Shown here in pieces: positions 2,966 through 63,432 of a stretch of DNA of 64,000 nt. Position numbers and translations under genes: made by a program. The stretch's first letter is position 1; the number at the start of each line of letters is the position of its first letter. The notes under the pieces are model-generated. The model made no database searches. It was not told where the DNA came from and saw only the letters and a program-made list of their open reading frames with translations. The stretch spans positions 96,001-160,000 of the forward strand of contig CAWKNZ010000010.1 of the NCBI GenBank assembly GCA_963851265.1. Direction: 5' to 3'. The DNA comes from an uncultured Gemmatimonadales bacterium. Its GTDB lineage: Bacteria; Gemmatimonadota; Gemmatimonadetes; Gemmatimonadales; Gemmatimonadaceae.

Positions 2966-3519
2966 GCGTACCACCGCTGGTCGCCGTCGTCGGTCGCAAG
3001 CACAGCGGCAAGACCACACTCGTCGTGCGCCTCGTCGCGGCGTTGGTCGCGCGCGGACATCGCGTGATGACCATCAAGCACGGCCACCACACGTTCAACC
3101 TCGACCCGTCCACCACGGACACGTACCGCCACTACCACGAGGGCGGGGCCGAGCGCGTCGCGATGGCCGCGCCCGACAAGTTCGCGCTCGTGGTCCGGTG
3201 GGGCGACGAGCGCGGCGGACCCGAACTCGGGCCCGAGGCGATCGCGGAGCGCTACCTGAGCGACGCCGACGTCGTGGTCTGCGAGGGGTTCAAGAATTCG
3301 GCGCTGCCCATGATCGAGGTATTCCGCGAGGCCGCACACCGCGCCCCGATCTACGAGCCCGGCGGCCCGACGGCGCCGCAGTACCTCGCCGTGGTGACGG
3401 ACGTGCCTAACGGCGGGACCGACGCGCGGCTCGCCGGCGTGCGCGTGCTGTCGTTCGACGACCCGGGACACCTCGACGCGCTCGCGGCGATCGTCGAGGG
3501 CTCGGTCATGCGCCGCTGA
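2962..3519 (+). CDS. mobB: Molybdopterin-guanine dinucleotide biosynthesis protein B
   Basis: GTG overlapping the mobA stop; P-loop VVGRKHSGKTTL, TIKHGHH, DTYRH, VVCEGFK. Confidence 0.9.
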   Translation: MSVPPLVAVVGRKHSGKTTLVVRLVAALVARGHRVMTIKHGHHTFNLDPSTTDTYRHYHEGGAERVAMAAPDKFALVVRWGDERGGPELGPEAIAERYLSDADVVVCEGFKNSALPMIEVFREAAHRAPIYEPGGPTAPQYLAVVTDVPNGGTDARLAGVRVLSFDDPGHLDALAAIVEGSVMRR

Positions 3520-3537
3520 CGCGCGGCGCGCCCCGTC

Positions 3538-4857
3538 GTGTCGGGCCCCTGGCGTGGCGCCCCGCCCCGCGACCGCGAGCGGCTAACGGCTGGGGAGGCG
3601 GGCGCGCGGATCCTCGACGCGGTGCAGCCGCTCGCGGCCGAGGGCGTCGCGCTCGACGATGCGTTCGGCCGGGTGCTCGCCGAGCCCGTGTCGTCTCCGC
3701 TCACCATCCCGCCGTGGGATGCGAGCGCGATGGACGGCTACGCCGTGCGCGCGGTGGACGTTCGTGGCGCCGCGCCCGCGGAGCCGGTGTACCTCGCCGT
3801 CGACGGTACGGTGGCCGCCGGGCACGAGGACGCGCGTCCGCTCGCCCCGGGGACCGCGCGTCGCATCATGACCGGCGCGCCGCTCCCGCCCGGGGCTGAT
3901 GCGGTCGTGCGCGTGGAGGACACGGACGGCGGGGGCGGACGGGTGGCCGTATGGCGAGAGGCGTCGCCGGCGCGCGACGTCCGCCGCCGCGGCGAGGACG
4001 TGCGCACGGGCGACGTCGTGCTCGACGGCGGCGCGTCGCTCGGACCCGCGCAGATCGGGCTGCTCGCCGCTTGCGCCGCCGCGACGGTTCACGTGCACCG
4101 CCGCCCGCGCGTGGGCATCCTCGGATCGGGCGACGAACTCGTCCCGCTGGCTCGCGCGTCCGAGGCCGTGACCCGGGGACGCATCGTGGGCTCCAACAAT
4201 CACGCACTCGCCGCCGCGGTCCGCGAGGCAGGCGGCATCCCGGTGGACCTGGGCATCGCGGCCGATACCGTGGATGCGGTACGCGAGCGCATGGCAGCGG
4301 GCGCCGGCTGTGACCTGATCGTCACCACCGCCGGCGTCTCGGCCGGCGAGTTCGACTGCATGCACGACGCGGTCGCCGGGATGGGCGGCCGCGCCGCGCG
4401 GTGGGCGGTGCGCATGCGCCCGGGCGCGCCGATGGGGTTCGGCCGCGTGGGCGCGGCGCCCGGCGTGACGTGGCTCGGCCTGTCCGGCAACCCCGGCGCC
4501 GCGCTCGTCGCCTTCGAGCTGTTCGCACGACCCGCGATCCGGCGCCTCGGCGGACACCGGGCGCCCTTTCGCCGGGTCGTGCCGGTGGTACTCGGTGAGC
4601 CCCTCGTGCTCGCCGCGTCGGTGCTGCACCTGCTCCGCGTCGAGCTACACGAGGGCGACCGCGACGCCCCGGACGACCGTCACGTCCCGCGCGCGCGGCT
4701 CGCGGGCGCACAGGGGGCCGGGCGGCTCACGACGGCGGCGCGCGCGGACGCCCTACTCATCGTGCCGGAGGCGCGCGCGCGGTACGAGGCGGGCGAGCGG
4801 CTCACGGCCATTCCGTTAGGCGACGCTCCGCCCAGCGCGACGCCGCCACCGCTCTGA
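3538..4857 (+). CDS. moeA: Molybdopterin molybdotransferase (MoeA/Glp)
   Basis: SAMDGYAV, IMTGAPLP, GDELV, TTAGVSAG, MRPG-P, GLSGNP. Confidence 0.9.
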   Translation: MSGPWRGAPPRDRERLTAGEAGARILDAVQPLAAEGVALDDAFGRVLAEPVSSPLTIPPWDASAMDGYAVRAVDVRGAAPAEPVYLAVDGTVAAGHEDARPLAPGTARRIMTGAPLPPGADAVVRVEDTDGGGGRVAVWREASPARDVRRRGEDVRTGDVVLDGGASLGPAQIGLLAACAAATVHVHRRPRVGILGSGDELVPLARASEAVTRGRIVGSNNHALAAAVREAGGIPVDLGIAADTVDAVRERMAAGAGCDLIVTTAGVSAGEFDCMHDAVAGMGGRAARWAVRMRPGAPMGFGRVGAAPGVTWLGLSGNPGAALVAFELFARPAIRRLGGHRAPFRRVVPVVLGEPLVLAASVLHLLRVELHEGDRDAPDDRHVPRARLAGAQGAGRLTTAARADALLIVPEARARYEAGERLTAIPLGDAPPSATPPPL

Positions 4858-4910
4858 TCGCCCGGGTGCCGGGGCGCGCGTGGCGCGCTTCCTGTACACC
4901 ACCGCCCGCC

Positions 4911-6254: not shown

Positions 6255-6322
6255 GCGCGCGGACGCCGGACCATTCACCGCTCCATACGAGCCTGCCGCC
6301 CGGCGAGGGCTCCCACCGGTAT

Positions 6323-7828: not shown

Positions 7829-7880
7829 CCGGGGACGATTTCCGCGCCGAAACGGACCGGCCAGGTGCCTAACGACAAGA

Positions 7881-7904
7881 CGCCGGCCACGGTGGTGGCC
7901 GGCG
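7881..7904. terminator. Hairpin between convergent araA and ferritin-like gene (probable terminator)
   Basis: CGCCGGCCAC-GGTG-GTGGCCGGCG, 10-bp perfect stem; followed by TCTTGTCGTT on the minus strand. Confidence 0.65.
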
Positions 7905-7931
7905 CCTCGATCATGCCGCGACTGCGGGCCG

Positions 7932-8810: not shown

Positions 8811-8821
8811 GGAATCTCCGC

Positions 8822-9523: not shown

Positions 9524-9667
9524 CGTCACTCCCTCAAGGAATCCGTTAGGCCACGTCTCATGTCGTGGCGGCGGCCCCGCCGGGCGGCGGGGCGCTGGGC
9601 GCGCGGCGCGAGCCCGGTGCGCGGGTGGTGCGGTACGGGTCCGGTCGCGGCGGCGGCGCGCGACGCG

Positions 9668-10652: not shown

Positions 10653-10668
10653 TGCATCACACGTGCCC
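10653..10668 (-). promoter_or_regulatory. Possible sigma-54 -24/-12 element upstream of the PEP-CTERM gene
   Basis: Minus strand GGGCACGTGTGATGCA = GG-N10-GC with a GGCACG core; lies about 300 bp from the ATG, so tentative. Confidence 0.3.
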
Positions 10669-12126: not shown

Positions 12127-13413
12127 ATGTCCCTGCCCCATCGCGCGCGGGCCCGGCCCGTACTCGGGCTGATGCTCGCGCCCTTCGCGGCCACCCTCGC
12201 CCCGCGCGCGACGGTCGGCGCGCAGACGCAGGCAACGCCCGCCGCGCCGTCGCGGCCCGCGCAGACGGAGGCCGACGCGTACACGCGCTACGAGCTCCTC
12301 ACGCCCGGCTCCGCCAAGTTCCGGATCGTCTACGAGGTCACGGCGACCACGCCCGGCGCCACCGAGTACTACAACCCGATCCGCCCAGGCAGCGTGGCGA
12401 GCGACGAGCGCGTCACCGACCGCGCGACCGGACGGCCGCTCGCCTTCGCGCAGGTCGACGGCCGCGCGGCGCGCGCCGGCGGCGTGACCGGCGCGGATTC
12501 GGCCGGCGCGTACATCCGCGTCACCCTCGCGCGGCCGGTCCCGCCTAACGGAGGCGGGCGCGTGCTGATCGAGAAGACCTACGAGGACCCGAAGAGCTAC
12601 CGCGTCGACGGGCGGGACCTCGTCTTCGAGCGCGCGTTCGGCATCAAGCGCAACGCGGTCGTGCTCCCGCCGGGCTACGAGCTGGTCGCGTGCAACTACC
12701 CGTCGCAGGTCCGGCACGAGCCCGACGGGCGGGTGGCGGTGAGCTTCTGGAACGCCACGCCGGCCCCGGCGCCGCTCGTCCTCCGCGCCCGCCCCGGCGC
12801 GCCGCGCCCGGCGGCCCCGTCGAGCGCCGCCGCGCGGATCGACGAGCGCGCGCACGGCACGCGCGCCATCGTCTACTTCCTCCGGCAGCCCGAGACGCAC
12901 ACCTTCGACCTCTACCACGATTACACCGAGTCGCGCCCCGGCACGAGCACCTACGTCAACGTCGTGCGCGCGGGCAGCAGGGTGTCAGCCCCCTCCGCGC
13001 GCGACCTCGACACGGGCGAGTCGCTGCGCTGGGAGGTGCTGCGCGGCGCCGCGATCGCCGCCGCGCCGGGCGTCTCGATGGCCGGCGAACCGCCGGTCAC
13101 GCCGCAGACCGAGGCCGTGGTGTTCCGCTTCGCACCCGTTAGGCCCGGCGCGTCGGTGCGCCTCCGCATGTCCGAGACGTACACCGACAGCTCGCGCTAC
13201 ACGCTGAACGGCGACGAGCTGGTGTGGAACCGGTCGTTCGGCCGTCCCGCCAACGCGGTCGTGCTGCCGCCCGGCTGGGTGCTCACGGGGAGCGCGGCCC
13301 CGGCGACGGTGGGCGAGATGCCCGACGGTCGCATCCGGCTCGACTTCATCAACCCGCGCCCGGACGACCTCGCGGTACTCATCACCGCGCGCCGGCGAGT
13401 CGCCGGGTCGTGA
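12127..13413 (+). CDS. Exported protein with two tandem homologous domains, function unknown
   Basis: Signal-like N-terminus; halves share TY.D...Y...[18 protein letters not shown]......PDGR....F.N. Confidence 0.75.
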
Positions 13414-14171
13414 CGGCGGGCCAGTCGCCCGCGACCGCCGTGTACGTCGGGTGCGCGGGGTGGAGCATTCCTCGCGTGTCGCAGGGCGACTTCCCCGGCG
13501 ACGGCTCGCATCTCGAACGGTACGCCGCGCGCTTCCCCGGGGTCGAGATCAACTCGTCGTTCTACCGCCCACACCGACCGGCGACGTACGCGCGGTGGGG
13601 CGCGTCCGTGCCCGCTGCGTTCCGCTTCTCCGTCAAGTTGCCGCGCGCGATCACGCACGAGCGGCGACTCGTCGGGACCGAGCCGCTCCTGGACGGGTTC
13701 CTCGCCGACGCGTCGGCGCTCGGCACGCATCTCGGGTGCCTGTTGGTCCAGCTGCCGCCGAGCCTCGCGTTCGACGCGTCGGTGGCGGACGCGTTCATGG
13801 GCACACTCCGGGCGCGCCACGCGGGCCCGGTGGTCGTCGAGCCGCGGCATGCGAGCTGGTTCGTGCCGGCCGCCGACCGGGTGCTCGACGCGTGGTGCAT
13901 GGGTCGCGTGGCGGCCGACCCTGCCAGGGTGCCGCTGGCGGCCGAGCCGGGCGGCTGGCCGGACACCATCTACTACCGGCTGCACGGCTCGCCGCGCACG
14001 TACTACTCCTCGTACGACGAGGCCTACCTCGACCGGCTCGCCGAGCGGCTGATCGGCGAGCGCGCGGGGGCCGCGTGGTGCGTGTTCGACAACACCGCGC
14101 TCGGCGCGGCGACGCCTAACGCGCTCGCCCTGGTCGACCGGCTCGCCGCCGCGGCCACGCGCGGCGGGTGA
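13410..14171 (+). CDS. DUF72 family protein
   Basis: YVGCAGWS, VEINSSFYR, FRFSVKLPRAITH, LVQLPPS, EPRHASW, YYRLHG, CVFDN. Confidence 0.9.
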   Translation: MTAGQSPATAVYVGCAGWSIPRVSQGDFPGDGSHLERYAARFPGVEINSSFYRPHRPATYARWGASVPAAFRFSVKLPRAITHERRLVGTEPLLDGFLADASALGTHLGCLLVQLPPSLAFDASVADAFMGTLRARHAGPVVVEPRHASWFVPAADRVLDAWCMGRVAADPARVPLAAEPGGWPDTIYYRLHGSPRTYYSSYDEAYLDRLAERLIGERAGAAWCVFDNTALGAATPNALALVDRLAAAATRGG

Positions 14172-17095: not shown

Positions 17096-17110
17096 CCCGG
17101 CCACGGCCTA

Positions 17111-17158
17111 ACGCGACGCGCCCCCCGCCGGACCGGTCCGGCGGGGGGCGCGTCGCGT
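17111..17158. repeat. Perfect 48-bp palindrome between convergent genes (probable bidirectional terminator hairpin)
   Basis: ACGCGACGCGCCCCCCGCCGGACC followed directly by its exact reverse complement. Confidence 0.85.
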
Positions 17159-17202: not shown

Positions 17203-18636
17203 TCAGTGTAGGCCGACCTGCCCGCGCACCGACGCGAACAGCCGTACCGCGTCGTAGCCGACACCGCCCTTGAACACGGTCTCGACGTGCTCGACGTCGG
17301 CGATGCGGGCAGACGGATCGCCGAGCACGACGACGAGGTCGGCGCGACGGCCCGCCGCGACGGTCCCGATCCGATCGGTCTGCCCGAGGTAGGTGGCTCC
17401 GTTGAGCGTGGCGATGCGGATCGCCTCCAGCGGCGTGAACCCGGCCTCGACGAGCAGTTCCAGCTCGCGGTGATTCGCGTAGCCAGCGACGACGCCGCCG
17501 TATCCGGTCGGGTCCGTGCCGGCCAGCAGCAGTCCCCCCGCGCGCACGAACTCGCGTTCGAACTGCATCTCGTTCGCGAAGATCCGCGTCCACGGAGACG
17601 CGGGCTGCGCGGCGATGCGCCGCCACGTGCGCTCGTACTGCTCGCGCGCCTCGGGAAGCATGGCGTCGAGCGCGCCCGCCGGCGCCTCCGGCCGACCGGG
17701 CGTGTACGTCTCGAACACGGTGAGCGTCGACGTGACCGCGACGTGGTGCGCGACGAGGTCCCGGATCAGCGACTGGACCGGTTCGGAGCGGACGTCGAGT
17801 GCCGCGACCGAAGCCGCCCCAGCCGCGGCCGGGCAATCGTCCGCGCGCTTGCCCGGCGCGAAGTCGGTCGCGACGGCGAGCCCGTGCTCGAGGTTGTCGA
17901 TCCCGAGTGCGGCCGCCTCGCGGAAGGTCACCGAACAGAGATGCCCGGTGATCTTGAGCCCGCGCCGGTGCGCTTCGTCGGCCGCGGCTTTCAGCTCGGC
18001 GCGCGTGATGTGCATGTAGGCCTTGAACGACGTCGCGCCGCGGTCGGCCCAGTAGGCGACCGTTTGCCGCGCGTCGTCGGCCCCTGTGAGGGCGTGGACC
18101 TGGTAGATGGGCAGGCCGGGCCCCTCGAGGTACGGGGCGGTCGCGTCGAGCGACGGGCCGGCCGCGCGACCGCCGTCGATCGCCGCCTTCAGCTCGAGGT
18201 CGGCGTAGCCGGCCATGTTGCCCGCGGTGCGCGCGGTGGTCACGCCGCCGGCGAGGTAGAGGCGCGGAAAGCTGAACGCCTGCTCGTTGTAGACGGTCCC
18301 ACCCCCGGACGGGTAGAACATGTGCTCGTGCATCATGACGAGGCCGGGGAGCACGGAGCGCCCGGGCAGGTCGAGCACGCGCGCGTCGTTAGGCACCGGC
18401 GTCGTCGCGGCGTCGCCGACGGCACGCACGACCCCGTGATCGACGACGACGCTCTGGTCGGCGCGCGCGGGCGCGCCGGTCCCGTCGATCACGCGCACGT
18501 GGCGGAGCACGAACAGCGCGGTGTCCAACGACACGAACGCGCGCACCTCGGGGGCCAGCGTCGACGTCTGCGCGGGCGTCCGGGCGAACGGGGTGAGCGC
18601 GAGCAGCGCGGCGGGCAGGTAGGCGGACAGGCGCAT
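17203..18636 (-). CDS. Secreted amidohydrolase-family protein
   Basis: Signal peptide; HVRVIDGTG, PGLVMMHEH, GVTTART, ITGHL, LEHG, LLAGTD, ADLVV. Confidence 0.88.
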   Translation of the reverse strand: MRLSAYLPAALLALTPFARTPAQTSTLAPEVRAFVSLDTALFVLRHVRVIDGTGAPARADQSVVVDHGVVRAVGDAATTPVPNDARVLDLPGRSVLPGLVMMHEHMFYPSGGGTVYNEQAFSFPRLYLAGGVTTARTAGNMAGYADLELKAAIDGGRAAGPSLDATAPYLEGPGLPIYQVHALTGADDARQTVAYWADRGATSFKAYMHITRAELKAAADEAHRRGLKITGHLCSVTFREAAALGIDNLEHGLAVATDFAPGKRADDCPAAAGAASVAALDVRSEPVQSLIRDLVAHHVAVTSTLTVFETYTPGRPEAPAGALDAMLPEAREQYERTWRRIAAQPASPWTRIFANEMQFEREFVRAGGLLLAGTDPTGYGGVVAGYANHRELELLVEAGFTPLEAIRIATLNGATYLGQTDRIGTVAAGRRADLVVVLGDPSARIADVEHVETVFKGGVGYDAVRLFASVRGQVGLH

Positions 18637-21326: not shown

Positions 21327-21454
21327 GCACGCTCCTGACGTGAGATTACCACCCGGCCGGCGTCCGGCGCCGCGGGCGCCCCCACGATACGTCGGGACGC
21401 CGGGGTGTCAAGCGACGCGTCCTCGGCGCGGCGCACGCCGCCCAGGGCCTAACG

Positions 21455-21545: not shown

Positions 21546-21561
21546 TGCCGCCCGCGCCGAC

Positions 21562-21876: not shown

Positions 21877-22050
21877 CGGGTAGCTCCCGGCGAAGTGTGG
21901 AATCGGGGCGGGCGGCAGGGTGCGTGCCAGGAGGTGTCGTTCGGCGCGCCGGACCGTCGCGGCGGGCCGCGGCACCGATTCTGCGCCCCGGTTCGCCATG
22001 CCCCCGCCCCGGACCCACCGCCCGGGCGCGCCCACACGCACGCCTAACTG

Positions 22051-29145: not shown

Positions 29146-29163
29146 GCGCGCCTTATCGGGCGT

Positions 29164-39499: not shown

Positions 39500-41552
<2,053 letters not shown>

Positions 41553-43270: not shown

Positions 43271-48098
<4,828 letters not shown>

Positions 48099-48099
<1 letters not shown>

Positions 48100-48887
48100 T
48101 GCAGGCGACCGGGCGCGCACCGGCCGACGCGTTAGGCTCCACGATGGGCGGCGGCTACGCCGAACGGCGCGGGCGGGTGCAGGAGTACTTCGACCACACC
48201 GCCGCCGGCGCGTGGGCGCGCCTCACGGGCGACGCGCCCGTGAGCGGCGTGCGCGCGACCGTGCGCGAGGGGCGCGCGCGCATGCGGGCGCAGCTGCTCG
48301 CGTGGCTGCCGACCGATCTCGCCGGCGCGCGCGTGCTCGACGCGGGGTGCGGGCCCGGCGCGCTCTCGACGGAGCTCGCCGCGCGCGGCGCGCACGTCAC
48401 CGCGGTCGACCTCTCGCCGACGCTCGTCGCGCTCGCGCGCGAGCGCGCCGGCGGGTATCCTGGGGCGAAGCACATTACCTGGCGCGTGGGCGACATGCTC
48501 GACCCCGCGCTCGGCCGACACGACTACGTGGTCGCCATGGACTCACTGCTCTACTACGACGCGCCCGAGGCGGCGCGCGCGCTGGCCCTGTTCGCGGCCG
48601 GTGCGACGCGCGCGGTGCTCGCCACCTTCGCGCCGGCCACGCCGCTGCTGCGTGCGATGCACGCGACGGGGCGGCTGTTCCCGCGCGGCGACCGCGCGCC
48701 GGCGATCGAGCCCGTGGGCGAGGGCGCGCTGCGTGCGGCCGTCGGCACGCTGGTTCAGGCCGACACGCGGCTCGCCGCGTGGCGGTGGGCGCGCTCGGCG
48801 CGGGTCGCGCGCGGCTTCTACACGTCGCAGGCGCTGGAGCTGCGCCGCGACCACGGTTCGGCTACCACCCTGGAGGACGTTGCATGA
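48099..48887 (+). CDS. bchM: Mg-protoporphyrin IX methyltransferase
   Basis: YFD.TA..AW.RLT.DAPVS.VRATVREGR, VLDAGCG.G, GDMLDP, MDSL.YY, GFYTSQALEL. Confidence 0.95.
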
Positions 48888-50401: not shown

Positions 50402-51865
50402 ATGAGCGCGGCGCCCGGCGCGTGGACGCGCGGCTGGATGCAAATCGGTGCGCGGTGGCTCCCGTTCGCCGACGCGGCGTCGGCGGAGCTGCCGTTAGGC
50501 CGCCTGCTGCGCCTCGGGCTGTTCCAGGTCACCGTGGGCGCGGCGCTTACGCTGCTCACGGGCACGCTCAACCGCGTGATGATCGTGGAACTGCGCGTGC
50601 CGGCGTCGGTGGTCGGCTGGATGCTCGCGTTGCCGCTGTTCGTCGCGCCGTTCCGCGCCCTCGTCGGGCACCGGTCGGACGTGTACGCCTCGGTGCTCGG
50701 CTGGCGGCGCGTGCCGTACGTGTGGTTCGGCACGCTGATGTCGTGGGGCGGACTCGCGATCCTGCCGTTCGCGCTGATTCTGCTGTCGGGCGACACGCAC
50801 GGGTCGCGTGCGGCGGCGGTGACGGCGAGCGCGCTCGCGTTCTTCCTCGTGGGCGCGGGCATGCACACCACGCAGACGGCGGGGCTCGCGCTCGCGACCG
50901 ACCTCGCGCCCGAGTCGGCGCGGCCGCGCGTGGTCGCCCTGCTCTACCTCATGCTGCTCGTCGGCACGTTCGTGAGCGCGCTCGCCTTCGGCGCCCTCCT
51001 GCGCGACTTCTCGCAGATCCGTCTGATCCAGGTGATTCAGGGGACGGCGGTGGTCACGCTGGCGCTCAACGTCGTCGCGCTCTGGAAGCAGGAGCCGCGG
51101 CGACCGATGACGCGCGCGCAGGCGGCGGCGGTGCCGCGGCCGCCGTTCCGGGCGCGGTGGCGGGCGTTCGTCGGCGCGGGGCGTGCGGCGCGGCTGCTCG
51201 CCGCGGTCGGGTTGGGCACGTTCGCCTTCAACCTGCAGGACGTGCTGCTCGAGCCGTACGGCGGCGAGGTCCTGCACCTGTCGGTCGCGGGAACCACCGC
51301 GCTCACGGCGCTGTTTGCCGCGGGCATGATCGCGGCGTTCGGCGTGAGCGCGCGCGCGCTCGAACGGGGCCGCGACCCGATCCGCGTCGCCGCCGCCGGC
51401 ATCGGGTGCGGGATGCTCGGGTTCGTGGCCGTGATCTTCGCCTCGCCACTCGCGGACGTGACGCTGTTCCGCATCGGAAGCGCGCTGATCGGCTTCGGCG
51501 AAGGGTGCTTCGCGGTCGGCACGCTGACGAGCGCGATGGGCCTGCGCACCACGTGCGACGAGCACGGCATCGCGCTCGGCGCGTGGGGTGCGGTGTTCGC
51601 GACGAGCGAGGGCGCGGCGCTCGCGCTCAGCGGCGTGGTCAAGGACGCGATCGCGGCGCTCGTGCGCGGCGGCGTGCTCACGGGCGGGATGGCCGCCCCT
51701 AGCGTGCCGTACAGCGTCGTGTACCACGCCGAGGTCGGGTTGCTGTTCGCGACGCTGGTCGCGCTCGGGCCGCTCGTCGCTCGGCGGGGCGCGCTCCGGC
51801 CCGCGGCGGCCGCCTCCGCCGGCCCGCGCCCGCGCTTCGGCCTCGCCGAGCTGCCCGGCAGTTAG
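50402..51865 (+). CDS. lhaA: BCD-family MFS LH1 assembly protein (LhaA/PucC)
   Basis: LPFADAASAELPL.RLLRL.LFQ, GTLNRVMIVEL, GWRRVPY, QDVLLEPYGG, ALGAWGAV. Confidence 0.92.
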   Translation: MSAAPGAWTRGWMQIGARWLPFADAASAELPLGRLLRLGLFQVTVGAALTLLTGTLNRVMIVELRVPASVVGWMLALPLFVAPFRALVGHRSDVYASVLGWRRVPYVWFGTLMSWGGLAILPFALILLSGDTHGSRAAAVTASALAFFLVGAGMHTTQTAGLALATDLAPESARPRVVALLYLMLLVGTFVSALAFGALLRDFSQIRLIQVIQGTAVVTLALNVVALWKQEPRRPMTRAQAAAVPRPPFRARWRAFVGAGRAARLLAAVGLGTFAFNLQDVLLEPYGGEVLHLSVAGTTALTALFAAGMIAAFGVSARALERGRDPIRVAAAGIGCGMLGFVAVIFASPLADVTLFRIGSALIGFGEGCFAVGTLTSAMGLRTTCDEHGIALGAWGAVFATSEGAALALSGVVKDAIAALVRGGVLTGGMAAPSVPYSVVYHAEVGLLFATLVALGPLVARRGALRPAAAASAGPRPRFGLAELPGS

Positions 51866-51919
51866 GCACTTCCCCTTCGGCGCTCCGCCGTCCCCTTCCC
51901 CACTCGGAGGCTCGTCCCC

Positions 51920-52225
51920 ATGCACTTCGCACGCTCGATCGACGTCGCCCAGGTCGCGATCTACGCGTTCTGGCTCTTCTTCGCCGGCCTCGTCTACTAC
52001 CTGCGCCGCGAGGACAAGCGCGAGGGGTACCCGATGGTCTCGGACGGGCCGGGGGGCGTGATCCAGGGGTACCCGCGCACGCCGGGACCGAAGCGCTTCA
52101 TCCACCGGCCGCTCCACGCCGACGTGCCCTTCGGCAGCTCGGCCGCCACCCCGGCGTCCGTCGCCGCGACGTCCAGCGCGCCGCCGCCCCCGGCCGACTA
52201 CCCCGCCGCGCCGCCCACCGCCTAA
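51920..52225 (+). CDS. puhA: Reaction centre H subunit, N-terminal TM polypeptide (Ht)
   Basis: [40 protein letters not shown]; ends at TAA 52223-52225. Confidence 0.88.
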
Positions 52226-52249
52226 CGTACCCGCCACCGGAGCCCCGCC

Positions 52250-54140: not shown

Positions 54141-54695
54141 ATGCCCGACACCGCGCCGGACCTCGCCGGCCACCCGGAGCGGCAGACGCGTGCGGCGGCT
54201 CCGTCATGGGGCGCCATCGCGCTGTTCGGCGCGCTGACCGTCGTCGGCGTCGTTGCGGCGAACGTGGGCTCGGGCGCCGCGCGCCCGAGCACGTATCGCT
54301 GGTGGCGGTCGCTGGACAAACCGTCGTACACGCCGCCCGATCCCGTCATTCCCGCCGTCTGGAGCGTGATGTACACGCTCGCGGCGGTGTCCGCGGCGCG
54401 GGTCTGGCGGGCGGGGCCGGATGCCGACCGGCCGCGTGCGCTGGCGCGGTGGGGCGTTCAGCTTGGGCTGAACGGGCTCTGGACGCGACTGTTCTTCGGC
54501 CACCGCCGGCCCGACCTCGCGCTCGTCGACTCCGCCGCGCTGTTCGGGGCAGTCGCGGCGTACGCACGCGCCGCGGATCAGGTGGACCGGCCCGCGGCGC
54601 AGCTCATGCTGCCGTACCTCGGGTGGGTCGGGTTCGCGACGGTGCTGAACGCGGACCTCGCGCTCCGGAACGCGACGCCAGACTCGGGCGCCTAA
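54141..54695 (+). CDS. tspO: TspO/MBR tryptophan-rich sensory protein
   Basis: WW.SLDKPSYTPP, VWSVMY, QLGLNGLWT.LFFG, L.LPYLGWVGFA.VLN. Confidence 0.9.
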   Translation: MPDTAPDLAGHPERQTRAAAPSWGAIALFGALTVVGVVAANVGSGAARPSTYRWWRSLDKPSYTPPDPVIPAVWSVMYTLAAVSAARVWRAGPDADRPRALARWGVQLGLNGLWTRLFFGHRRPDLALVDSAALFGAVAAYARAADQVDRPAAQLMLPYLGWVGFATVLNADLALRNATPDSGA

Positions 54696-54988
54696 CGAAG
54701 GCGGTCGGGGCGCGGGGCGCGCGTTCGGGCGTACGCGCTCCCAACGTGCGCGACGTTCGCCACGCCGGCGGCCGCGAGGGCCGCCAGTGTGACCCAGGCC
54801 GGCCATCCGGCGAGCACCGCACGGAGCGCGACGAGGAGTCCGGCGCCCGCCCCGGCGAACGACAGCACGAACCCCGCCCCGGGCGCCCCCGTCCGGCGCC
54901 CCCGCCACGCGAGCCAGAGTGACTCGAGGGCGAGCAGCGCGAGGACGGCGTCGACGAGGGCGGGGCGGAGGAGCGCGGCCGCGGTCAC
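54692..54988 (-). CDS. Small membrane protein (about 3 TM) downstream of pufC
   Basis: 98 aa, hydrophobic; VDAVLALLALE...GLLVALRAVLAGW; stop overlaps the tspO stop. Confidence 0.6.
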   Translation of the reverse strand: MTAAALLRPALVDAVLALLALESLWLAWRGRRTGAPGAGFVLSFAGAGAGLLVALRAVLAGWPAWVTLAALAAAGVANVAHVGSAYARTRAPRPDRLR

Positions 54989-55064: not shown

Positions 55065-56342
55065 CTACCGCGAGGCGTACCGCGAGGCGGCACGAGCGGC
55101 CGGGGGCGGGCCGACCCGCGATGCGAGTCGTGCTCCCGCCACCGGTCCGATGGGCGTTGGGCGCACGGTCAGCAACTGCTCCGCCGCGTCGAGCCCCGAG
55201 ACCTGGGCCGCCGCACCCGGAGCGACCGAAACCGCCGCGGCCGCGGCCGCGCGCGGCGGTACCGGCGCGGGTCGCGAGCGCGGGTACGGGTCCGGAGACG
55301 GCAGCGACGACGAGTCGGTCGGGATCTTGTCGACCGCGTCGCGCCGGTCGACGATGCCGTCGAACGACGTGTCCGCCGGCGTGTGCGCGTCCCACGGCCC
55401 GGGGTGGCCCCAGAGCGCCGGATAGTCCTTGACCATGCTCACGCCCGCGAGCGGCTTGTGCACGCCGTTGTGACACGTGGCGCAACCGACCATCGGCGGG
55501 TCGCCGCGCTCGCCCAGCCGCACGGCGGGGAGGACGGTGCCGAGCGGGCCGACGTACGTCTGGTTGATGTGGCGCGTCATGCGCAGCCCGTAGAGCGCCG
55601 ACACGCGCGTCCAGGGCGCGTTCTGCCAGCTCGCCCACGAGCGGCTGTTGTGGCAGAACGTGCAGTTGACGCCTAACGAGTTGCTCATGTTGATCATGAG
55701 CGCGTACGTCCACTCGGCCTGCCGGACCGACGAGTAGTTCGCGTTGGTCGGCGGCGCGGTGTACGACTGCACCCGGACGTCCGACCGGTCGAGGTAGGCG
55801 CGGAGGTACTGGTTCTCGTTGGTCTGGTGCCAGAGCCCCGCGCGCGGCACCGGGGCCCCGTAGTGGCACGTGTAGCACGTGACGCCGGTGACCCGCACGT
55901 GCGCGCGCCAGTTGGTGTTGATGTCGCGCGTCATCAGCAGCATGCGGCGCGAGACCACCTTGGCGTACTTCTCGTCCGAGGCGTAATTGGCGGGGTTGTG
56001 GCAGTAGATGCACCCGGCCTGCGACCCCGTCTTCGGCGCCACCCAGTTGGTCATCGCCTGCATGGTGCGCGTGAACTCGCCCGCGGGCAGGTTCACGAGC
56101 ACCTGGACGTTTTGCCAGTTGCCGACCGGTGTGTTGGGCGGCGCCGGCGGCAGCGGCGGCAGCGCGACGTTGCGCGAGAGGACCTCGCGTTCGTTGCGGA
56201 CGTCGATGTTCTGCTCTTCGGCGACCCCGCGATAGCCGAGTTGCGCCGTTTCCTTCTTCCCCAGCTGGCACGCCGCGAGTGCGGCGGCGGCCAGGGGGAA
56301 GGTGACGGCCGACCACGCGCGGGCGGTCATGCGGATGGTCAT
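55065..56342 (-). CDS. pufC: RC-bound tetraheme cytochrome c subunit (lipoprotein)
   Basis: LAAC lipobox; four CXXCH motifs (CIYCH, CYTCH, CTFCH, CATCH); Pro/Ala-rich C-terminal tail. Confidence 0.95.
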
Positions 56343-57809: not shown

Positions 57810-58634
57810 TCAGCGCCAGATCGGGAGGTTGAGCCACCAGTCCCACCACTCCGGCCAGCCCTTGGTCCAGAGCGGCCCGCTCACCACGATGCAGAGGGCC
57901 GAGAAGATCCCGGCGCCTAACGCAAGGGCGAGTCCGAGGCGGTGGATGCCGACCGCGCCGATCGAGTAGCCGAGCACGTCGCGGAAGAAGGTGTTCTCGT
58001 GCTCGCTCGTCTTCACCGGCTCCCCCTTCTTGGGGTTCACCACGGAGAGGATGAGCGACCCGTGCATGGAGAGCGCGAGCGTCGTCGTGAAGAACAACGT
58101 CACCGCGATCATGTGCAACGGGTTGTAATGGAAGTGCAGGTACTGGTACCCGACGTTGCTCACCCAGTCGAGGTGGCTCAGGATGCCGTAGGGGAAGCCG
58201 TGTCCCCACGCGCCGAGCCAGACGGGGCGGATGACGACGAGCGTGACGTAGGCGAACACGGCCACGCCGTACGCCCAGGGGATGTGCATCCCCATGCCCA
58301 GCTTGCGCGAGATCTCGGCCTGCCGGAACGCCCAGCTCACGAACGCGCCGATCGCGGCGATCGTGATGAGCTGCCAGAGGCCGCCCTCACGGAGGGGGGC
58401 GAGGCCCAGTCCGTACTTGAGGTCGGGCGGGGCGATGTTGATCTGCCACAGGTCCCAGGTGCCGCCGATGGCCGCGCCCCAGACACAGAGCAGCGTCCCG
58501 ACGACGGCGAAGAAAATGGTGGTGACGCCGAAGAAGCCCACGTAGAACGGTCCGACCCAGAAATCGAACAGGTCGCCGCCGATCAGCGTGCCGCCCCGGA
58601 CGCGGTACTTGGCCTCGTAACTCAGCATGGCCAT
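57810..58634 (-). CDS. pufL: Reaction centre L subunit
   Basis: [56 protein letters not shown]. Confidence 0.98.
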
Positions 58635-58929: not shown

Positions 58930-58938
58930 GGCGGGCTC

Positions 58939-59395: not shown

Positions 59396-59443
59396 GCCTA
59401 ACATGTAGCCCAACATAGTGTCCGACACATCGCCTAACACGGG
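59396..59443. repeat. Four 12-bp-phased direct repeats in the divergent pufB/bchO region
   Basis: GCCTAACA (59396), GCCCAACA (59408), GTCCGACA (59420), GCCTAACA (59432). Confidence 0.7.
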
Positions 59444-60332: not shown

Positions 60333-60355
60333 CCCCTCGCGAGCCCGCGCGCCGC

Positions 60356-61849
60356 TCACGCCCCGGCCCCCGCGAGCGCGCCGCGCGCGCCCTCGACGAA
60401 CGCCCGCGTGACCGCCGCCGCGCCCGCGTGCCGCGCGTCCCGCTCGGCCCGGTCACGAATCCGCTTGGCGACCGAGATGCGGGCCACGTACGGCGCGGCC
60501 TCCACCGCCTCGTCGAGGCCGGCCTGCGCGCCGTCGTCCCACGGCAGCGCGTCGTCCGCCGCGACGACGCCCGCCGAGCCGGCCGCCGCACCCGCCGCGC
60601 GCGCCGGCGTGGCGTCGATCCGGTCCAGCTCCGTGCCTAACGGGATGATGTGGAACAGGGTGTCGAACAACGCGTTGCAGCACTCCTGCACGAGGTACGT
60701 CGCGCCGGCGTACCCCATGAAGGGCGTGCCGGTGTGCCGCCGCACGACGGCGCCCGGGAACGACGCCGGGATGTACGTCGCCCGCCCGCCGGTCTCCGCG
60801 AGGTACATGCGCTCGTTGAAGCTCCCGAACAGGACGAGCGGCGGCCGCTCCTTGATCGACTGCCGCACGGCCGCGTTGTCGGTCTTCTGCCCGGGCCGCC
60901 GCGCGACCGCGAAGGTGCACGGCATCCCGAGCTCCTCCTCGAGGAAGTGCCGCAGCCCGCGCGCGTACGTCTCGTTCGCGACCACGCCGAACGACGCCGT
61001 GCCGAAGAAGTCCTGCGTCACGCTCCGCCACAGATCCCAGAGCGGCTTCACCGTCGTGTGCTTCTCGCTCGCGATGAACGGCTCGGGGTCGAGGCCGAGC
61101 TCCGCGCCGAGCGCCCGCAGGAACGCCGTGGTGCTGTGCAGCCCGATCGGCGCCTGGAAGTAGGGCCGGCCGAGCGCCTCGGCCAGCAGGCGCCCGTACT
61201 CGCGGTACATCACCACGTTCGCCTCGGCATCGATCAGCCGCGGCACGTCGGCGAGGTGGCAGCCGAGCGGGAAGGTGAGGTTCACCTCCGCGCCGATGCC
61301 TTCGACCAGCCGGCGCAGCTCGGCGAGATCGCTCCACACGTTGAACGTGCCGTACGCGGGGCCGAGGATGTTCACCCGCGGGCGCTCCCCGGCCGCACGT
61401 TCGCGGGGCTTGGGGGCCACGCCGCGCTTGAGCCCGTACTCGGTCCACAGCCAGGCCATCGCGCGGTTCGCGCTCTGCCACTGGTCCTCGTCGATCGTGC
61501 GCGGCAGGAAGCGCTGGATGCCGGTGCCTTCGGGCGTCACGCCGCCGCCGATCATCTCGGCGATCGATCCGGTGACCACCACCGACGGCAGCTCGGGGTC
61601 GAGCGCGCGGTGCGCGCGGCGCATGGCGCCCTCGGTGCCGTGCTGGCCCAACTCCTCCTCGCCGAGGCCGGTGACGACGATCGGCAGCTCGTGCGGCGGG
61701 AGCGCGTCGGTGTAGTGCAGGACCGACGTGACCGGGAGGTTCTCGCAGCCGACGGGGCCGTCGATGACGACCTGCAGCCCCTTCACGGCCGTGAAGACGT
61801 ACACGGCGCCCCAGTAGCCGCCGGCGCGGTCGTGGTCGAGGACTAACAC
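60356..61849 (-). CDS. bchZ: Chlorophyllide a reductase subunit Z
   Basis: GTG with [56 protein letters not shown]. Confidence 0.96.
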
Positions 61850-61878
61850 GGAGCGCCTCCCCGCGATCGCGACGCGCA

Positions 61879-63432
61879 TCAGACCATCTCCTCCGCCTTG
61901 CGCGCCCGCGCGAGCTTGACGAGGTGCCGCTTGTAGTGCTCGCGGAACTCCGGCCGGTCCTGGGGCAGCTCGTTGGACGCGGTGCGCTCCCACACACCTG
62001 CCGCGTGGCCCTCGCCCACCCCGGCGAAGAACTCGCGCATCCGGTCGAACCGCGCGCGGTTGGCGACGGCCCCGTTGACGACCGGCGCGAGCGCTCCCGC
62101 CCCCGCCGGGCCCATCAGCGGACGCGCGGAGATCAGGTTCGTGAAGTAGAGCGCGGGCACGCCGCGCTCCTTCGCGTGCTGCACCACCGGCGTCGTCCCG
62201 ATCGCGACGTCGGGTTGGAACTCCTCGAACGCGGCGAGGTCCTGCTCCAGCGACGCGCGGTACTGCACGTGCACGCCGTGCGCGGCGAGCCACTCGCGGT
62301 CGGGCTCGCTCCAGGGCGTCCGCGGGCAGGCCGTGCCGACGTAGCGCACGTCCGCGCCGCTCTCGACGAGCAGCCGCGCGACGATCAGCTCCGACCCCTC
62401 GTACCCGGAAAGCGTGACGCGCGCGTCGATCCGGTTGGCCGCGAGCGCGGCGCGGATCGGGTGCAGCACGCCCTTGGCGGTGTCGATCGCCGAGCGCGCC
62501 GCGCCCGTCGCCTCGCCCACCGCCTCGAGCCACGCGGCCGTTCCGTCGACACCCACCGGCGCGGAGGGGAGCACGCGCCGCCCCGCCGCCTCGAACTCGC
62601 GCACCGAGGCGACGTAGAAGGGGTGCAGCGCCGCGACCACCGCGCCGTCGAGCGCGGCGTACAGCTCGCGCCACTCGCGCGTGGGCACCGCCGGCCCCGC
62701 CGCGAGGCCTAACGGTTCGAGCAGCCGGCCGATCACGACCGGGTCGGCCGGGAACAGCTCGCCCAGCAGCGTGACGGTCGGCTTCGCGCTCACGCCCGCG
62801 CGCGGCGCGCGCACCGGGCCCTGCTCCGCCTCGCCGCGCGCGTAGCGCAGCATCGCGCCGGCCAGCACGTCCTTCGCCTCGGCGTGCGTCGGCACGCCGA
62901 AGCCCGGCACGTCGATGCCGACCACGCGCACGCCGTTGATCTCCTTCGGCAGCAGCTGCAGCGGCACGCCCGACGCCGTGGGCACGCACAGGTTGGTCAC
63001 CACGATCGCGTCGTACTGCGCAGGGTCGGCGAGCTCGTGCACCGCGTCGCGGATGTCCTCGAACAGCTTGCCGGTGACGAGCGACTCGGAGTTGAACGGC
63101 ACGTACCCGACGGTGCGGCGCGCGCCGTAGAAGTGGCTCGTGAACGTCAGGCCGTACACGCAGCACGCGCTGCCCGAGAGCACGGTCGCCGTGCGGCGCA
63201 TGCGCAGCCCGACGCGCAGCGATCCGAACGCGGGGCACATGCTCTGCGGACGGTCGTGCGGGCCTTTCGGGTAGTCGCGCGCGAACCCGTCGAGCACGTC
63301 GCCCTTGCCCGCGGCGGTCGCGGCCGCGCGCAGCTGCTCCGCCCCCGCGTGGCAGCCGAGTCCGTCGACGCCGTCAGTGGGCATGTTGGGCACCGCCTCG
63401 GGGGCAACCAGTGTGGCCATCGTCGCGCTCAC
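61879..63432 (-). CDS. bchY: Chlorophyllide a reductase subunit Y
   Basis: [45 protein letters not shown]. Confidence 0.96.

What the first reader, a model, noticed from the sequence alone, without database searches (positions are those of the whole stretch)
3405..62713. Highly iterated non-palindromic heptamer GCCTAAC/GTTAGGC overriding codon bias
Seen: 35 exact copies by manual count (21 in one orientation, 14 in the other; about 1 per 1.8 kb), plus near-variants sharing the CTAAC core near 3581, 38944, 43676, 58937 and 61841. A zero-order estimate at about 74% GC gives only about 5 copies, and TA-containing words are otherwise scarce here. The motif does not depend on reading frame: 18 copies encode Leu-Gly with the very rare TTA codon (including pufL, pufC, bchB, bchN, hemA), 6 encode CCT-AAC, 1 uses GTT-AGG, 4 supply stop codons and 6 are intergenic. 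Inference: a DNA-level signal, either a binding, uptake or organisation site for an unknown protein, or a methylation/repair-driven word analogous to cyanobacterial HIP1 but asymmetric. Its similar density inside the photosynthesis cluster suggests the cluster has been resident for a long time.
Basis: partly seen in the sequence, partly recalled or inferred. Interest (0 to 1): 0.85.

Follow-up and report, generated by a model that had tools for sequence, protein, structure and literature searches.

The report
Genome-wide DNA word GCCTAAC/GTTAGGC
This soil bacterium and a few relatives have written one exact seven-letter DNA word about 1,800 times into genes, stop codons and spacers against their own codon habits, so some unknown protein must read the DNA itself; it looks most like the self tags used for DNA uptake in Neisseria and Haemophilus.

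Summary
The window holds 35 exact copies (21+/14-) against 2.4 expected from dinucleotide shuffles. Inside its genes there are 25 against 1.4 under a codon-preserving null.

Genome-wide there are 1,762 copies (0.38/kb) against 74 to 400 expected, depending on the null. The signal is at the level of double-stranded DNA:
- Both strands carry it equally, and both senses relative to genes are equally saturated.
- There is no replication polarity.
- Density is highest in 3' spacers and at stop codons.
- Specificity is sharp.
- Copies avoid each other within about 1 kb.
- Copies are kept between species far better than comparable words, yet are still being gained.

The word is rich in all 5 genomes of this genus and in one other genus. 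Three word-poor relatives have no substitute word.

It is spelled exactly like the R box of the integron attC sites carried by this order. However, the integrase is broken in 3 of 6 word-rich genomes.

None of the candidate readers I tested (methyltransferases, two minor pilins, integrase, Xer/dif) tracks the word. My best reading is an uptake- or recombination-type self tag (about 0.4).

This scan has already noted the same word in other windows of this genome and in other Gemmatimonadaceae genomes. No paper in the searched library describes it.

The parts
3405..3411 (+). word, G|CCT|AAC (Pro-Asn) in mobB (2962-3519 +)
4815..4821 (-). word, G|TTA|GGC (Leu-Gly) in moeA/glp-like gene (3538-4857 +)
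7867..7873 (+). word, intergenic, 39 bp after araA stop, convergent spacer
9545..9551 (-). word, intergenic between ORFs 8822-9529 and 9668-10351 (both -)
12543..12549 (+). word, G|CCT|AAC in ORF 12127-13413 (+)
13138..13144 (-). word, GTT|AGG|C (Val-Arg) in ORF 12127-13413 (+)
14114..14120 (+). word, G|CCT|AAC in ORF 13410-14171 (+)
17106..17112 (+). word, intergenic, convergent spacer after BioF/Kbl-family gene (15659-17095)
18388..18394 (-). word, G|CCT|AAC in ORF 17203-18636 (-)
19139..19145 (+). word, G|TTA|GGC in ORF 18698-19918 (-)
21447..21453 (+). word, intergenic, divergent spacer 21258-22050
22042..22048 (+). word, intergenic, just upstream of ORF 22051-23277
22746..22752 (-). word, G|TTA|GGC in ORF 22051-23277 (+)
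25206..25212 (-). word, G|TTA|GGC in GH3 beta-glucosidase-like gene (24433-26859 +)
27502..27508 (-). word, G|TTA|GGC in endo-1,6-beta-glucanase-like gene (27131-28414 +)
29141..29147 (-). word supplying the stop GT|TAG|GC of ORF 28525-29145 (+)
31875..31881 (+). word, G|TTA|GGC in hemJ (31545-32147 -)
32882..32888 (+). word, G|TTA|GGC in coproporphyrinogen oxidase gene (32144-33199 -)
34273..34279 (+). word, G|TTA|GGC in hemA (33190-34689 -)
36542..36548 (+). word, G|TTA|GGC in bchG (35954-36904 -)
41234..41240 (-). word, G|TTA|GGC in bchN (40212-41552 +); G001 has GTTGGGC here
42084..42090 (-). word, G|TTA|GGC in bchB (41578-43338 +); CTC-GGx in G001 and G004
42672..42678 (-). word, G|TTA|GGC in bchB
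45206..45212 (+). word, G|CCT|AAC in bchH (43260-47144 +); CCG/CCC-AAC in three congeners
48131..48137 (-). word, G|TTA|GGC in bchM (48099-48887 +); shared with G003 and G004
50494..50500 (-). word, G|TTA|GGC in ORF 50402-51865 (+); shared with G001, G003 and G004
51861..51867 (-). word supplying the stop GT|TAG|GC of ORF 50402-51865 (+)
52220..52226 (+). word supplying the stop GCC|TAA|C of the first half of the split puhA (51920-52225)
54690..54696 (+). word supplying the stop GCC|TAA|C of tspO (54141-54695 +)
55671..55677 (+). word, G|TTA|GGC in pufC (55065-56342 -); CTC-GGC in all three congeners, so gained in this lineage by two changes
57915..57921 (+). word, G|TTA|GGC in pufL (57810-58634 -); shared with G003 and G004
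59396..59402 (+). word, intergenic between pufB and bchO; shared with G004
59432..59438 (+). word, G|CCT|AAC in bchO (59418-60332 +)
60635..60641 (+). word, G|TTA|GGC in bchZ (60356-61879 -)
62707..62713 (+). word, G|TTA|GGC in bchY (61879-63432 -)

Best explanation
The word (C/T)GTTAGGC, which is GCCTAAC(G/A) on the other strand, is a lineage-specific 'self' tag on double-stranded DNA. An unidentified sequence-specific protein reads it.

It has accumulated and is maintained by a directional process that acts on whole DNA segments. The most likely process is preferential uptake or recombination of word-bearing DNA during natural transformation, as with USS in Pasteurellaceae and DUS in Neisseriaceae.

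Under this reading:
- Point mutations that create the word (mostly synonymous CTS/TTG to TTA, or CCS to CCT) are fixed more often than chance.
- Mutations that destroy it are removed.
- One copy per roughly 1 kb is enough, so neighbouring copies add little.
- The word therefore settles where it costs least: 3' spacers, stop codons and synonymous sites.

Shown here: the DNA-level nature of the signal, its symmetry, its sharp specificity, its spacing, its retention and ongoing gain, and its restriction to certain lineages.

For: Abundance. The genome holds 877 + 885 copies, against 396 / 160 / 96 / 126 expected under Markov orders 0 to 3. Inside genes there are 1,294 against 73.9 +/- 9.3 under a codon-preserving shuffle. 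Of 1,303 TTA codons, 994 lie in the word.

Symmetry.
- 7.8% of 12,783 Leu-Gly and 10.6% of 1,888 Pro-Asn dipeptides are written as the word.
- Around the inferred terminus, the sense ratio is 115:20 in leading-strand genes and 14:3 in lagging-strand genes (p = 0.72). Non-genic copies split 16:15. A dif-like site at C2:1368948 supports the terminus call.

Placement, as for DUS/USS.
- Density is 1.23/kb in convergent spacers, 0.55 in tandem spacers, 0.35 in divergent spacers and 0.32 in coding DNA.
- 124 of 440 TAA stops and 84 of 757 TAG stops are part of the word.
- A few inverted pairs form hairpins between convergent genes. Passages read in PMC2397512 describe this arrangement for DUS.

Spacing. 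Gaps of 200 bp or less number 46 against 128.6 +/- 9.4. Gaps of 500 bp or less number 193 against 306 +/- 14. None of 300 permutations among real Leu-Gly, Pro-Asn and spacer positions goes as low as the observed counts. G012 shows the same deficit: 28 against 63 at 200 bp or less.

Retention with turnover.
- Against G001, over 364 kb aligned at 80.8% identity, 54 copies are shared, 67 are G000-only and 146 are G001-only. So 45% of G000's copies are kept. The controls are 26.9% for same-phase 7-mers and 4.6% for those with a central A/T.
- Some copies were gained in G000 alone by two changes, for example pufC 55671.

Native DNA. Density rises from 0.19 to 0.40 per kb with codon typicality. The one 45-kb void is more divergent from congeners than its flanks: 77.0 against 83.5% identity with G001, and 78.4 against 82.9% with G004.

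Machinery. ComEC was found in 31 of 31 genomes. DprA and ComEA-like HHH_3 genes are present in G000.
Against: - No competence is documented for this phylum. The search for 'Gemmatimonas' with 'natural transformation' listed 6 papers, and none is about it by title or abstract.
- The uptake genes are equally present in word-poor relatives, so they do not discriminate.
- No receptor was found. Two minor pilins show no word-rich-only pattern.
- The distribution is patchy and without dialects. The three word-poor relatives sampled (400 kb each) have no hyper-abundant word of their own: their largest observed/expected ratio is 2 to 6, against 13 to 41 in the word-rich samples under the same null. 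DUS are family-wide with dialects (PMC3630211, abstract in the listing).
- One-mismatch variants are not enriched (0.12-1.0x), except GCCCAAC at 2.5x and GCCGAAC at 1.4x.
- Flanks of species-specific copies are not more divergent than random places: 81-82.6% against 81.1%. This is unlike the DUS-proximal regions described in PMC2397512.
- Uptake alone does not explain why the word equals the integron R box.
Confidence: 0.4

Rival explanations
1. The word is a half-site for an integron-integrase or Xer-type tyrosine recombinase. The dispersed copies are solitary R boxes (double-stranded attI/attG-like sites). A recombinase, or a protein derived from one, binds them, and their spread is tied to integron activity.
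For: - The word matches the core-site consensus GTTRRRY / RYYYAAC. That consensus is recalled; papers holding the term are listed.
- G000 carries a real cassette array at C10:188.9-215 kb. Its attC hairpins read GCCTAACG...CGTTAGGC, which shows the same +G flank as the dispersed copies (G in 79% at +7).
- In arrays of word-poor G021, 12 of 13 attC sites start with GCCTAAC and 10 of 13 end with GTTAGGC.
- Integron integrase scores above the family cut-off in 18 of 31 genomes of the order.
- Integrases can recombine double-stranded genomic sites with only a GWT consensus (passages read in preprint 10.1101/2022.09.11.507474).
Against: - The integrase is split by an insertion of about 2 kb in G000. 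It is a fragment with a stop in G001 and is frameshifted in G012. Yet the words are retained and still being gained.
- Many integron-bearing relatives have almost no dispersed copies.
- The dispersed copies are solitary. Only 11 convergent pairs lie within 200 bp, out of 1,750 gaps.
- Thousands of good target sites inside essential genes should be harmful.
- The dif-like site bears no likeness to the word.
Confidence: 0.15
2. The word is driven by methylation or repair, like HIP1 but asymmetric. It would be the recognition site of a Type IIG/III/ISP- or BREX-like enzyme, and biased repair or selection tied to that enzyme enriches it.
For: - The specificity is all-or-none, as for restriction-modification enzymes.
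- An asymmetric 7-mer with a penultimate A resembles the sites of MmeI-family enzymes (recalled, not tested).
- G000 encodes a 1,141-aa Eco57I/MmeI-type N6 methyltransferase beside an SNF2 helicase.
Against: - That gene has orthologues in 30 of 31 relatives.
- Its C-terminal third, taken here as the specificity region by analogy with MmeI (recalled), is no closer between word-rich G000 and G012 (53% identity) than to word-poor genomes (51-52%).
- No C5 methyltransferase was found, so a Vsr-type route has no substrate.
- No PF01555 member was found. The two PF02384 loci are fragmented.
- Dam/D12-class families were not searched.
Confidence: 0.15
3. The word is a binding site for a nucleoid-associated or chromosome-organising protein. 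Selection would act in cis for roughly one site per kb or so.
For: - Copies are spread nearly evenly: 7.6 per 20 kb on average, variance 8.6.
- Copies repel each other at short range in two genera.
- There is no strand or replichore polarity.
Against: - Positions turn over quickly. Only 45% of G000's copies are shared with G001 and 58% with G004, at about 81% identity.
- Copy number differs two-fold within the genus and four-fold between genera.
- Close relatives do without it and have no substitute word.
- The 45-kb void at parAB-mnmG is not conserved in G012, G001 or G004.
Confidence: 0.15
4. The word is a Chi-like or KOPS-like polar signal for RecBCD/AddAB or FtsK.
For: In the terminus-proximal 650 kb of contig C2, GTTAGGC lies on the leading strand in 133 of 183 copies.
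Against: - That skew is fully explained by gene orientation. The sense ratio is the same in leading and lagging genes, and non-genic copies split 16:15.
- Genome-wide there are 877 against 885 copies on the two strands.
- The word is built from the rarest codons, unlike Chi (recalled).
Confidence: 0.03
5. The enrichment is only a by-product of composition or codon usage, or an assembly or base-calling artefact.
For: None was found. The maximal-order Markov model gives 1,722 expected, but only because nearly every CCTAAC and GCCTAA is itself part of the word.
Against: - The codon-preserving null gives 73.9 against 1,294 observed.
- Dinucleotide shuffles give 2.4 against 35 observed.
- The same word is rich in 5 other assemblies and sits at orthologous positions.
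- A contig of run X1 covers 50438-50689, including the copy at 50494, without a difference. That run may be the source sample.
Confidence: 0.01

Closest known systems
DNA uptake sequences: USS of Pasteurellaceae and DUS of Neisseriaceae
   Same: - One exact short asymmetric word at 0.4-1.5 per kb.
- Equal on both strands.
- Written into genes at permissive positions, and densest in 3' spacers.
- Occasional inverted pairs that form hairpins.
- Retained across species, with gains that are too divergent to be simple single changes.
- Richer in native DNA.
   Different: - A different phylum with no known competence, and no receptor found.
- Patchy distribution with no dialects in word-poor relatives.
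- Almost no enrichment of one-mismatch variants.
- Flanks are not more divergent.
- Only 7-8 bp long, and identical to the integron R box.
HIP1 (GCGATCGC) of cyanobacteria
   Same: A hyper-abundant word that overrides codon usage, is conserved beyond neutral expectation, and has an unknown function.
   Different: HIP1 is a palindrome and has been linked to cognate methyltransferases (recalled). Here the word is asymmetric, and no methyltransferase tracks it.
Integron attC/attI core site (R box, GTTRRRY / RYYYAAC)
   Same: The spelling is identical, including the flanking G. The same genome and order carry real attC arrays with this R box.
   Different: - The dispersed copies are solitary, with no L box, hairpin or partner.
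- They lie in frame inside conserved genes.
- They persist where the integrase is broken.
Chi and KOPS (polar chromosome words)
   Same: Over-represented short asymmetric words.
   Different: There is no polarity once gene strand is controlled. The enrichment is far stronger and runs against codon usage.

Membership tests
DNA uptake sequences (USS/DUS) | One exact short word hugely over-represented genome-wide, about equal on both strands | tested here: met
   877 + 885 copies against 74-400 expected.
DNA uptake sequences (USS/DUS) | Densest in permissive places: 3' spacers, terminator-like inverted pairs, synonymous sites | tested here: met
   Convergent spacers hold 1.23/kb against 0.32/kb in coding DNA. 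208 stop codons are part of the word. Hairpin pairs occur at C2:11210, C7:567606, C8:177680 and C7:601245.
DNA uptake sequences (USS/DUS) | Over-represented in core or native DNA and lacking in recently acquired DNA | tested here: inconclusive
   Density rises from 0.19 to 0.40 per kb with codon typicality. The 45-kb void is more divergent from congeners. No true core/accessory partition could be made.
DNA uptake sequences (USS/DUS) | The word increases DNA uptake or transformation in a competent organism | not testable with these tools
   This needs a cultured word-rich strain. ComEC, DprA and ComEA-like genes are present, but also in word-poor genomes.
DNA uptake sequences (USS/DUS) | A cognate receptor (ComP-type minor pilin in Neisseria) | tested here: inconclusive
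   Nine prepilin-type N-termini were found. I tested 2 of the 9 as full proteins. Neither shows a word-rich-only pattern.
DNA uptake sequences (USS/DUS) | Shared across the family, with dialects in related lineages | tested here: not met
   The word is rich in only 6 of 31 genomes and intermediate in 4. None of the 3 word-poor relatives sampled has an alternative word.
HIP1-type methylation-linked word | Palindromic word | tested here: not met
   GCCTAAC is not its own reverse complement.
HIP1-type methylation-linked word | A cognate DNA methyltransferase co-occurs with the word | tested here: not met
   No PF00145 or PF01555 member was found. The Eco57I-type enzyme is in 30 of 31 genomes, with no closeness in its C-terminal third between rich lineages. 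Methylation itself was not testable.
Integron attC site | R''/R' inverted cores with L boxes in a 50-150 nt hairpin, downstream of a cassette ORF | tested here: not met
   This holds for about 12 sites in the array at C10:188.9-215 kb. It does not hold for the dispersed copies: only 11 convergent pairs lie within 200 bp, out of 1,750 gaps.
Integron attC site | Core sequence GTTRRRY / RYYYAAC | tested here: met
   GTTAGGC / GCCTAAC fits. The consensus is recalled; papers holding the term are listed.
Chi / KOPS polar words | Orientation bias with respect to replication, independent of gene strand | tested here: not met
   115:20 against 14:3 (p = 0.72), and non-genic copies split 16:15.

The most novel reading that the evidence does not exclude
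The self tag and the integron are functionally coupled. The lineage's DNA-uptake or recombination reader recognises the very sequence that forms the R box of the order's attC sites.

Environmental cassette arrays would then be imported preferentially and handed to chromosomal integrons as single strands. Transformation-fed cassette recruitment has been shown in Vibrio cholerae (PMC12614218, abstract read). The same bias, acting on conspecific DNA, would have written the word all over the chromosome.

A side effect would be thousands of strong double-stranded integrase targets. That could explain why the integrase is broken in 3 of 6 word-rich genomes.
Probability: 0.12. Interest if true: 0.9.

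Novelty: new variant of a known kind. Interest (0 to 1): 0.75.

Why it matters
Only two bacterial families are known to carry uptake-type self tags, and the function of the cyanobacterial HIP1 word is still open.

This is a third, independent case. It lies in a common soil phylum and has an unusually clean signature:
- an exact 7-8-mer
- about 17-fold excess over a codon-preserving null

The identity with the integron recombination core raises a testable link between DNA exchange and gene-cassette capture.

For annotation, the word explains odd codon usage and many TAA/TAG stop contexts in these genomes. It can also serve as a marker of how long a piece of DNA has been resident.

Tried and rejected
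**Replication and chromosome structure**
- Replichore polarity was rejected. GC skew alone was uninformative.
- A functional exclusion zone around parAB/mnmG was tested because the longest void (45 kb) holds these genes. It was rejected. G012 has copies right through parB, and G001 and G004 have copies within 2-6 kb of it.
- A Xer/dif reader was rejected. The dif-like site at C2:1368948 bears no likeness to the word.

**Candidate readers**
- Integrase as the necessary reader was rejected, because it is broken in G000, G001 and G012.
- Methyltransferases gave nothing. There are no PF00145 or PF01555 members. The PF02384 loci are fragmented. The Eco57I-type gene is order-wide.
- The minor pilins C9:34212-35204 and C3:173442-174677 show no word-rich-only pattern.

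**Other tests**
- Dialects in word-poor relatives were not found in G006, G015 or G028.
- Rfam found nothing in the intI region.
- Adjacent-copy orientation is unremarkable: ++ 482, -- 483, -+ 393, +- 392. Position within genes is flat.
- Flanks of species-specific copies are not more divergent than random places.

**Sequencing runs**
- No RNA holder was listed. Only small shares of the window's words were held (best 0.19).
- The laid contigs are short fragments, mostly from relatives. They add only one exact piece over one copy.

**Literature** (each result is a listing of titles and abstracts)
- searched for the word itself. It returned 4,851 papers, and the 20 listed are primer or sequence hits.
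- Gemmatimonadetes + integron + attC.
- uptake sequence + over-represented + Gemmatimonad.
- Gemmatimonas + natural transformation.
- None of the listed papers describes this word.

Full report
**1. The observation**

One hundred dinucleotide-preserving shuffles give 2.43 on average (largest 8).

I called genes with a codon log-odds ORF caller of my own. It gave 3,768 genes covering about 89% of the genome. I named the 56 window genes with NCBIfam.

- 18 G|TTA|GGC
- 6 G|CCT|AAC
- 1 GTT|AGG|C
- 4 stop codons
- 6 intergenic

The named genes (pufL, pufC, bchB, bchN, hemA) are right. The five CTAAC-core variants exist. Inside the window's genes, 25 copies stand against 1.42 +/- 1.17 under a within-gene synonymous codon shuffle (largest 6 of 500).

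**2. Genome scale**

The window is G000:C10:96001-160000, in a 4.60-Mb, 12-contig, 73% GC genome. The word occurs 877 + 885 = 1,762 times. Markov orders 0 to 3 expect 396, 160, 96 and 126. Higher orders "explain" it only because nearly every GCCTAA (1,794) and CCTAAC (1,848) is itself part of the word.

Inside genes there are 1,294 copies against 73.9 +/- 9.3 under the codon shuffle. This null is generous, because it keeps the TTA codons that the word itself supplies.

All frames without an internal stop are used:

| Class | Copies |
|---|---|
| G\|TTA\|GGC | 994 |
| G\|CCT\|AAC | 201 |
| xGC\|CTA\|ACx | 74 |
| GTT\|AGG\|C | 25 |
| gene boundary | 191 |
| intergenic | 277 |

Of 1,303 TTA codons, 994 lie in the word. 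One tRNA-Leu(UAA) gene exists. The flanks add C/T before GTTAGGC: G 79% and A 14% at +7 of GCCTAAC. There is also a weaker preference at -1: C 54%, T 22%.

**3. A signal on double-stranded DNA**

The fraction of available dipeptides written as the word is alike in both senses: 994 of 12,783 Leu-Gly (7.8%) and 201 of 1,888 Pro-Asn (10.6%). The 4:1 sense bias therefore reflects amino-acid supply, not transcription or translation.

GC skew is weak. Contig C2 nevertheless shows a switch of gene strand and a cumulative-skew maximum near 1.35 Mb, and a dif-like site lies at 1,368,948. Around it, the sense ratio is 115:20 in leading-strand genes and 14:3 in lagging-strand genes (p = 0.72). Non-genic copies split 16:15. 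There is thus no Chi- or KOPS-type polarity.

**4. Placement**

| Region | Copies per kb |
|---|---|
| convergent (3'/3') spacers | 1.23 |
| tandem spacers | 0.55 |
| divergent spacers | 0.35 |
| coding DNA | 0.32 |

In addition, 124 of 440 TAA stops read GCC|TAA|C, and 84 of 757 TAG stops read GT|TAG|GC. A few inverted pairs form long hairpins between convergent genes. Passages of PMC2397512 describe this arrangement for neisserial DUS. Position along genes is flat, and the orientation of neighbouring copies is unremarkable.

**5. Spacing**

Copies avoid each other. I re-dealt the copies among the real Leu-Gly, Pro-Asn and spacer positions:

| Gap | Observed | Expected |
|---|---|---|
| 200 bp or less | 46 | 128.6 +/- 9.4 |
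| 500 bp or less | 193 | 306 +/- 14 |
| 1,000 bp or less | 507 | 568 +/- 16 |

None of 300 permutations goes as low as the observed counts (the exponential expectation is). A 202-kb sample of G012 shows the same deficit: 28 against 63 at 200 bp or less. One copy per roughly 1 kb seems to suffice.

**6. Specificity**

Under the codon-shuffle null the exact word is 17.2-fold enriched. The 21 one-mismatch variants lie at 0.12 to 1.0-fold, with two exceptions. GCCCAAC, the TTG-GGC neighbour reached by one transition, stands at 2.5-fold. GCCGAAC stands at 1.4-fold.

**7. Evolution**

Counts in 31 genomes of the order are given as word against the reversed-word control:

| Group | Genomes and counts |
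|---|---|
| Genus of G000, all five rich | 1,762 / 2,703 / 977 (in 1.7 Mb) / 2,124 / 3,304, against 187-365 control |
| G012, another genus | 7,758 against 891 |
| Intermediate (word/control 0.8 to 2.1) | G008 681/717, G017 531/632, G018 654/309, G030 628/392 |
| The other 21 | 8 to 233 copies, far below control |

Alignments with two congeners gave the following:
- G000 against G001, 364 kb at 80.8% identity: 54 shared copies, 67 G000-only, 146 G001-only.
- G000 against G004, 251 kb at 81.4% identity: 52 shared, 38 G000-only, 104 G004-only.
- So 45-58% of G000's copies are kept. The controls against G001 and G004 are 27% and 28% for same-phase 7-mers, and 4.6% and 3.6% for those with A/T at the central third position.

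The usual alternative states are GCCCAAC, GCCGAGC, GCCCAGC and GCCGAAC. Some copies arose in G000 alone by two changes. In pufC at 55671, for example, all three congeners read CTC-GGC.

Against G012 (median 58% protein identity), positions are shared somewhat more than chance. At conserved Leu-Gly dipeptides the counts are both 9, G000-only 9, G012-only 47 and neither 183 (4.1 expected, p = 0.007).

On a single-gene MnmG tree of 17 genomes, G012 nests among word-poor genera in the sister clade of the G000 genus. That implies either one old gain with several losses, or two gains.

Three word-poor relatives (400 kb each) have no hyper-abundant word of their own.

**8. Native against foreign DNA**

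Density rises from 0.19 to 0.40 per kb from the least to the most codon-typical fifth of genes.

The longest void, 45 kb at C1:182,876-227,962, holds mnmG, parA, parB and mnmE. It is not a conserved exclusion zone. It is more divergent from congeners than its flanks: 77.0 against 83.5% with G001, and 78.4 against 82.9% with G004. That fits an import from a word-poor lineage but does not prove one.

The photosynthesis cluster is as word-rich as its flanks (19 against 16 copies) and is collinear in three congeners.

**9. The integron link**

The word is the integron core and inverse-core sequence (consensus recalled).
- On the same contig, C10:188.9-215 kb is a cassette array. Its small ORFs are followed by 96-121-nt hairpins that read GCCTAACG...CGTTAGGC.
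- Arrays of word-poor G021 use the same R box.
- Integron integrase scores above the family cut-off in 18 of 31 genomes.
- In G000 the integrase is split by about 2 kb carrying a large serine recombinase gene.
- In G001 the integrase is a fragment with a stop, and in G012 it is frameshifted. G003 and G004 have intact copies.

The integrase is therefore not needed to keep the word. The coincidence of spelling, flank included, remains unexplained.

Two papers give context. Passages of preprint 10.1101/2022.09.11.507474 show that integrases insert cassettes at double-stranded genomic GWT sites. The abstract of PMC12614218 reports that natural transformation feeds cassettes to chromosomal integrons.

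**10. The search for a reader**

- No C5 methyltransferase and no PF01555 member was found, and the two PF02384 loci are fragmented.
- An Eco57I/MmeI-type methyltransferase with an SNF2 helicase neighbour has orthologues in 30 of 31 genomes. Its C-terminal third is no closer between the word-rich lineages.
- ComEC is in 31 of 31 genomes, and DprA and ComEA-like genes are present. This is permissive but does not discriminate.
- Two of the nine prepilin-type proteins were tested, and neither tracks the word.

**11. Verdict**

The feature is real, strong and acts at the DNA level. It behaves most like USS/DUS, which I rate at about 0.4. It fails the "family-wide with dialects" criterion and lacks any functional test, so I do not file it as a member.

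Earlier notes of this scan reached the same reading on other windows and genomes. My literature searches found no description in print.

The unpublished genome G011 contributes one row to the 31-genome tallies.

Noticed in passing
window 51920-52816: puhA (reaction-centre H subunit) is split into two ORFs at the Pro/Ala-rich linker. The first ends in the TAA of a word copy. All four congeners examined are split at the same place, with different stops and frames. The split is known as puhA1/puhA2 (Ht/Hc) in Gemmatimonas phototrophica (PMC8849296, passages read).
   Followed up: yes
L007 (G000:C6:1-12000) 2951-7469: The integron integrase gene is interrupted. Profile positions 2-265 lie at 5244-6044, and 260-313 at 3005-3166. 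Between them sits about 2 kb holding a large serine recombinase gene (Resolvase, Recombinase and Zn_ribbon_recom domains) on the other strand.
   Followed up: partly
G000:C10:188900-215025 (same contig, 29 kb beyond the window's end): A cassette array of small minus-strand ORFs with textbook attC hairpins runs to the contig end. It includes two copies of a 371-aa plus-strand gene with equal score (200950-202062 and 206483-207595), possibly an insertion sequence inside attC sites.
   Followed up: partly
L120 (G000:C7:572001-590000) 7720-13511: A 1,141-aa Eco57I/MmeI-type N6 methyltransferase protein and an adjacent 759-aa SNF2-family helicase. The methyltransferase is conserved in 30 of 31 genomes of the order, which is unusual for a defence-type gene pair.
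   Followed up: partly
G000:C1:182876-227962 (L141-L143): The longest word-free stretch (45 kb) holds mnmG, parA, parB and mnmE. It is 4.5-6.5 points more divergent from congeners than its flanks. The 120 kb around parB is also below each genome's average density in G001 (0.28/kb) and G004 (0.42/kb), but hardly so in G012.
   Followed up: yes
G000:C2:1368948-1368975: A dif-like site, GGTTTACATAA-CATATA-TTATAAGCGAG. It lies at the gene-strand switch and cumulative-skew maximum, and a Xer-type recombinase gene sits at C2:1346667-1347503.
   Followed up: no
G000 whole genome: Words containing AGCGCT, or a variant with one extra central base, score high under a maximal-order Markov model. Examples: AGGCGCT 2,075 against 1,040; AAGCGCT 635 against 234; TAGCGCTTG 33 against 8.4. 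This may be a second, weaker word bias.
   Followed up: no
G000:C7:771474-772495 and G000:C9:923-1858: Two N6_Mtase (HsdM-like) loci, both near contig ends, are broken into pieces in different frames. They are either pseudogenes or carry assembly errors.
   Followed up: no
L020-L059 (G001 and G004 samples): In the congeners, a flank variant with A after GTTAGGC (GTTAGGCA / TGCCTAAC) is itself 25-28-fold over expectation. It is more prominent there than in G000.
   Followed up: no
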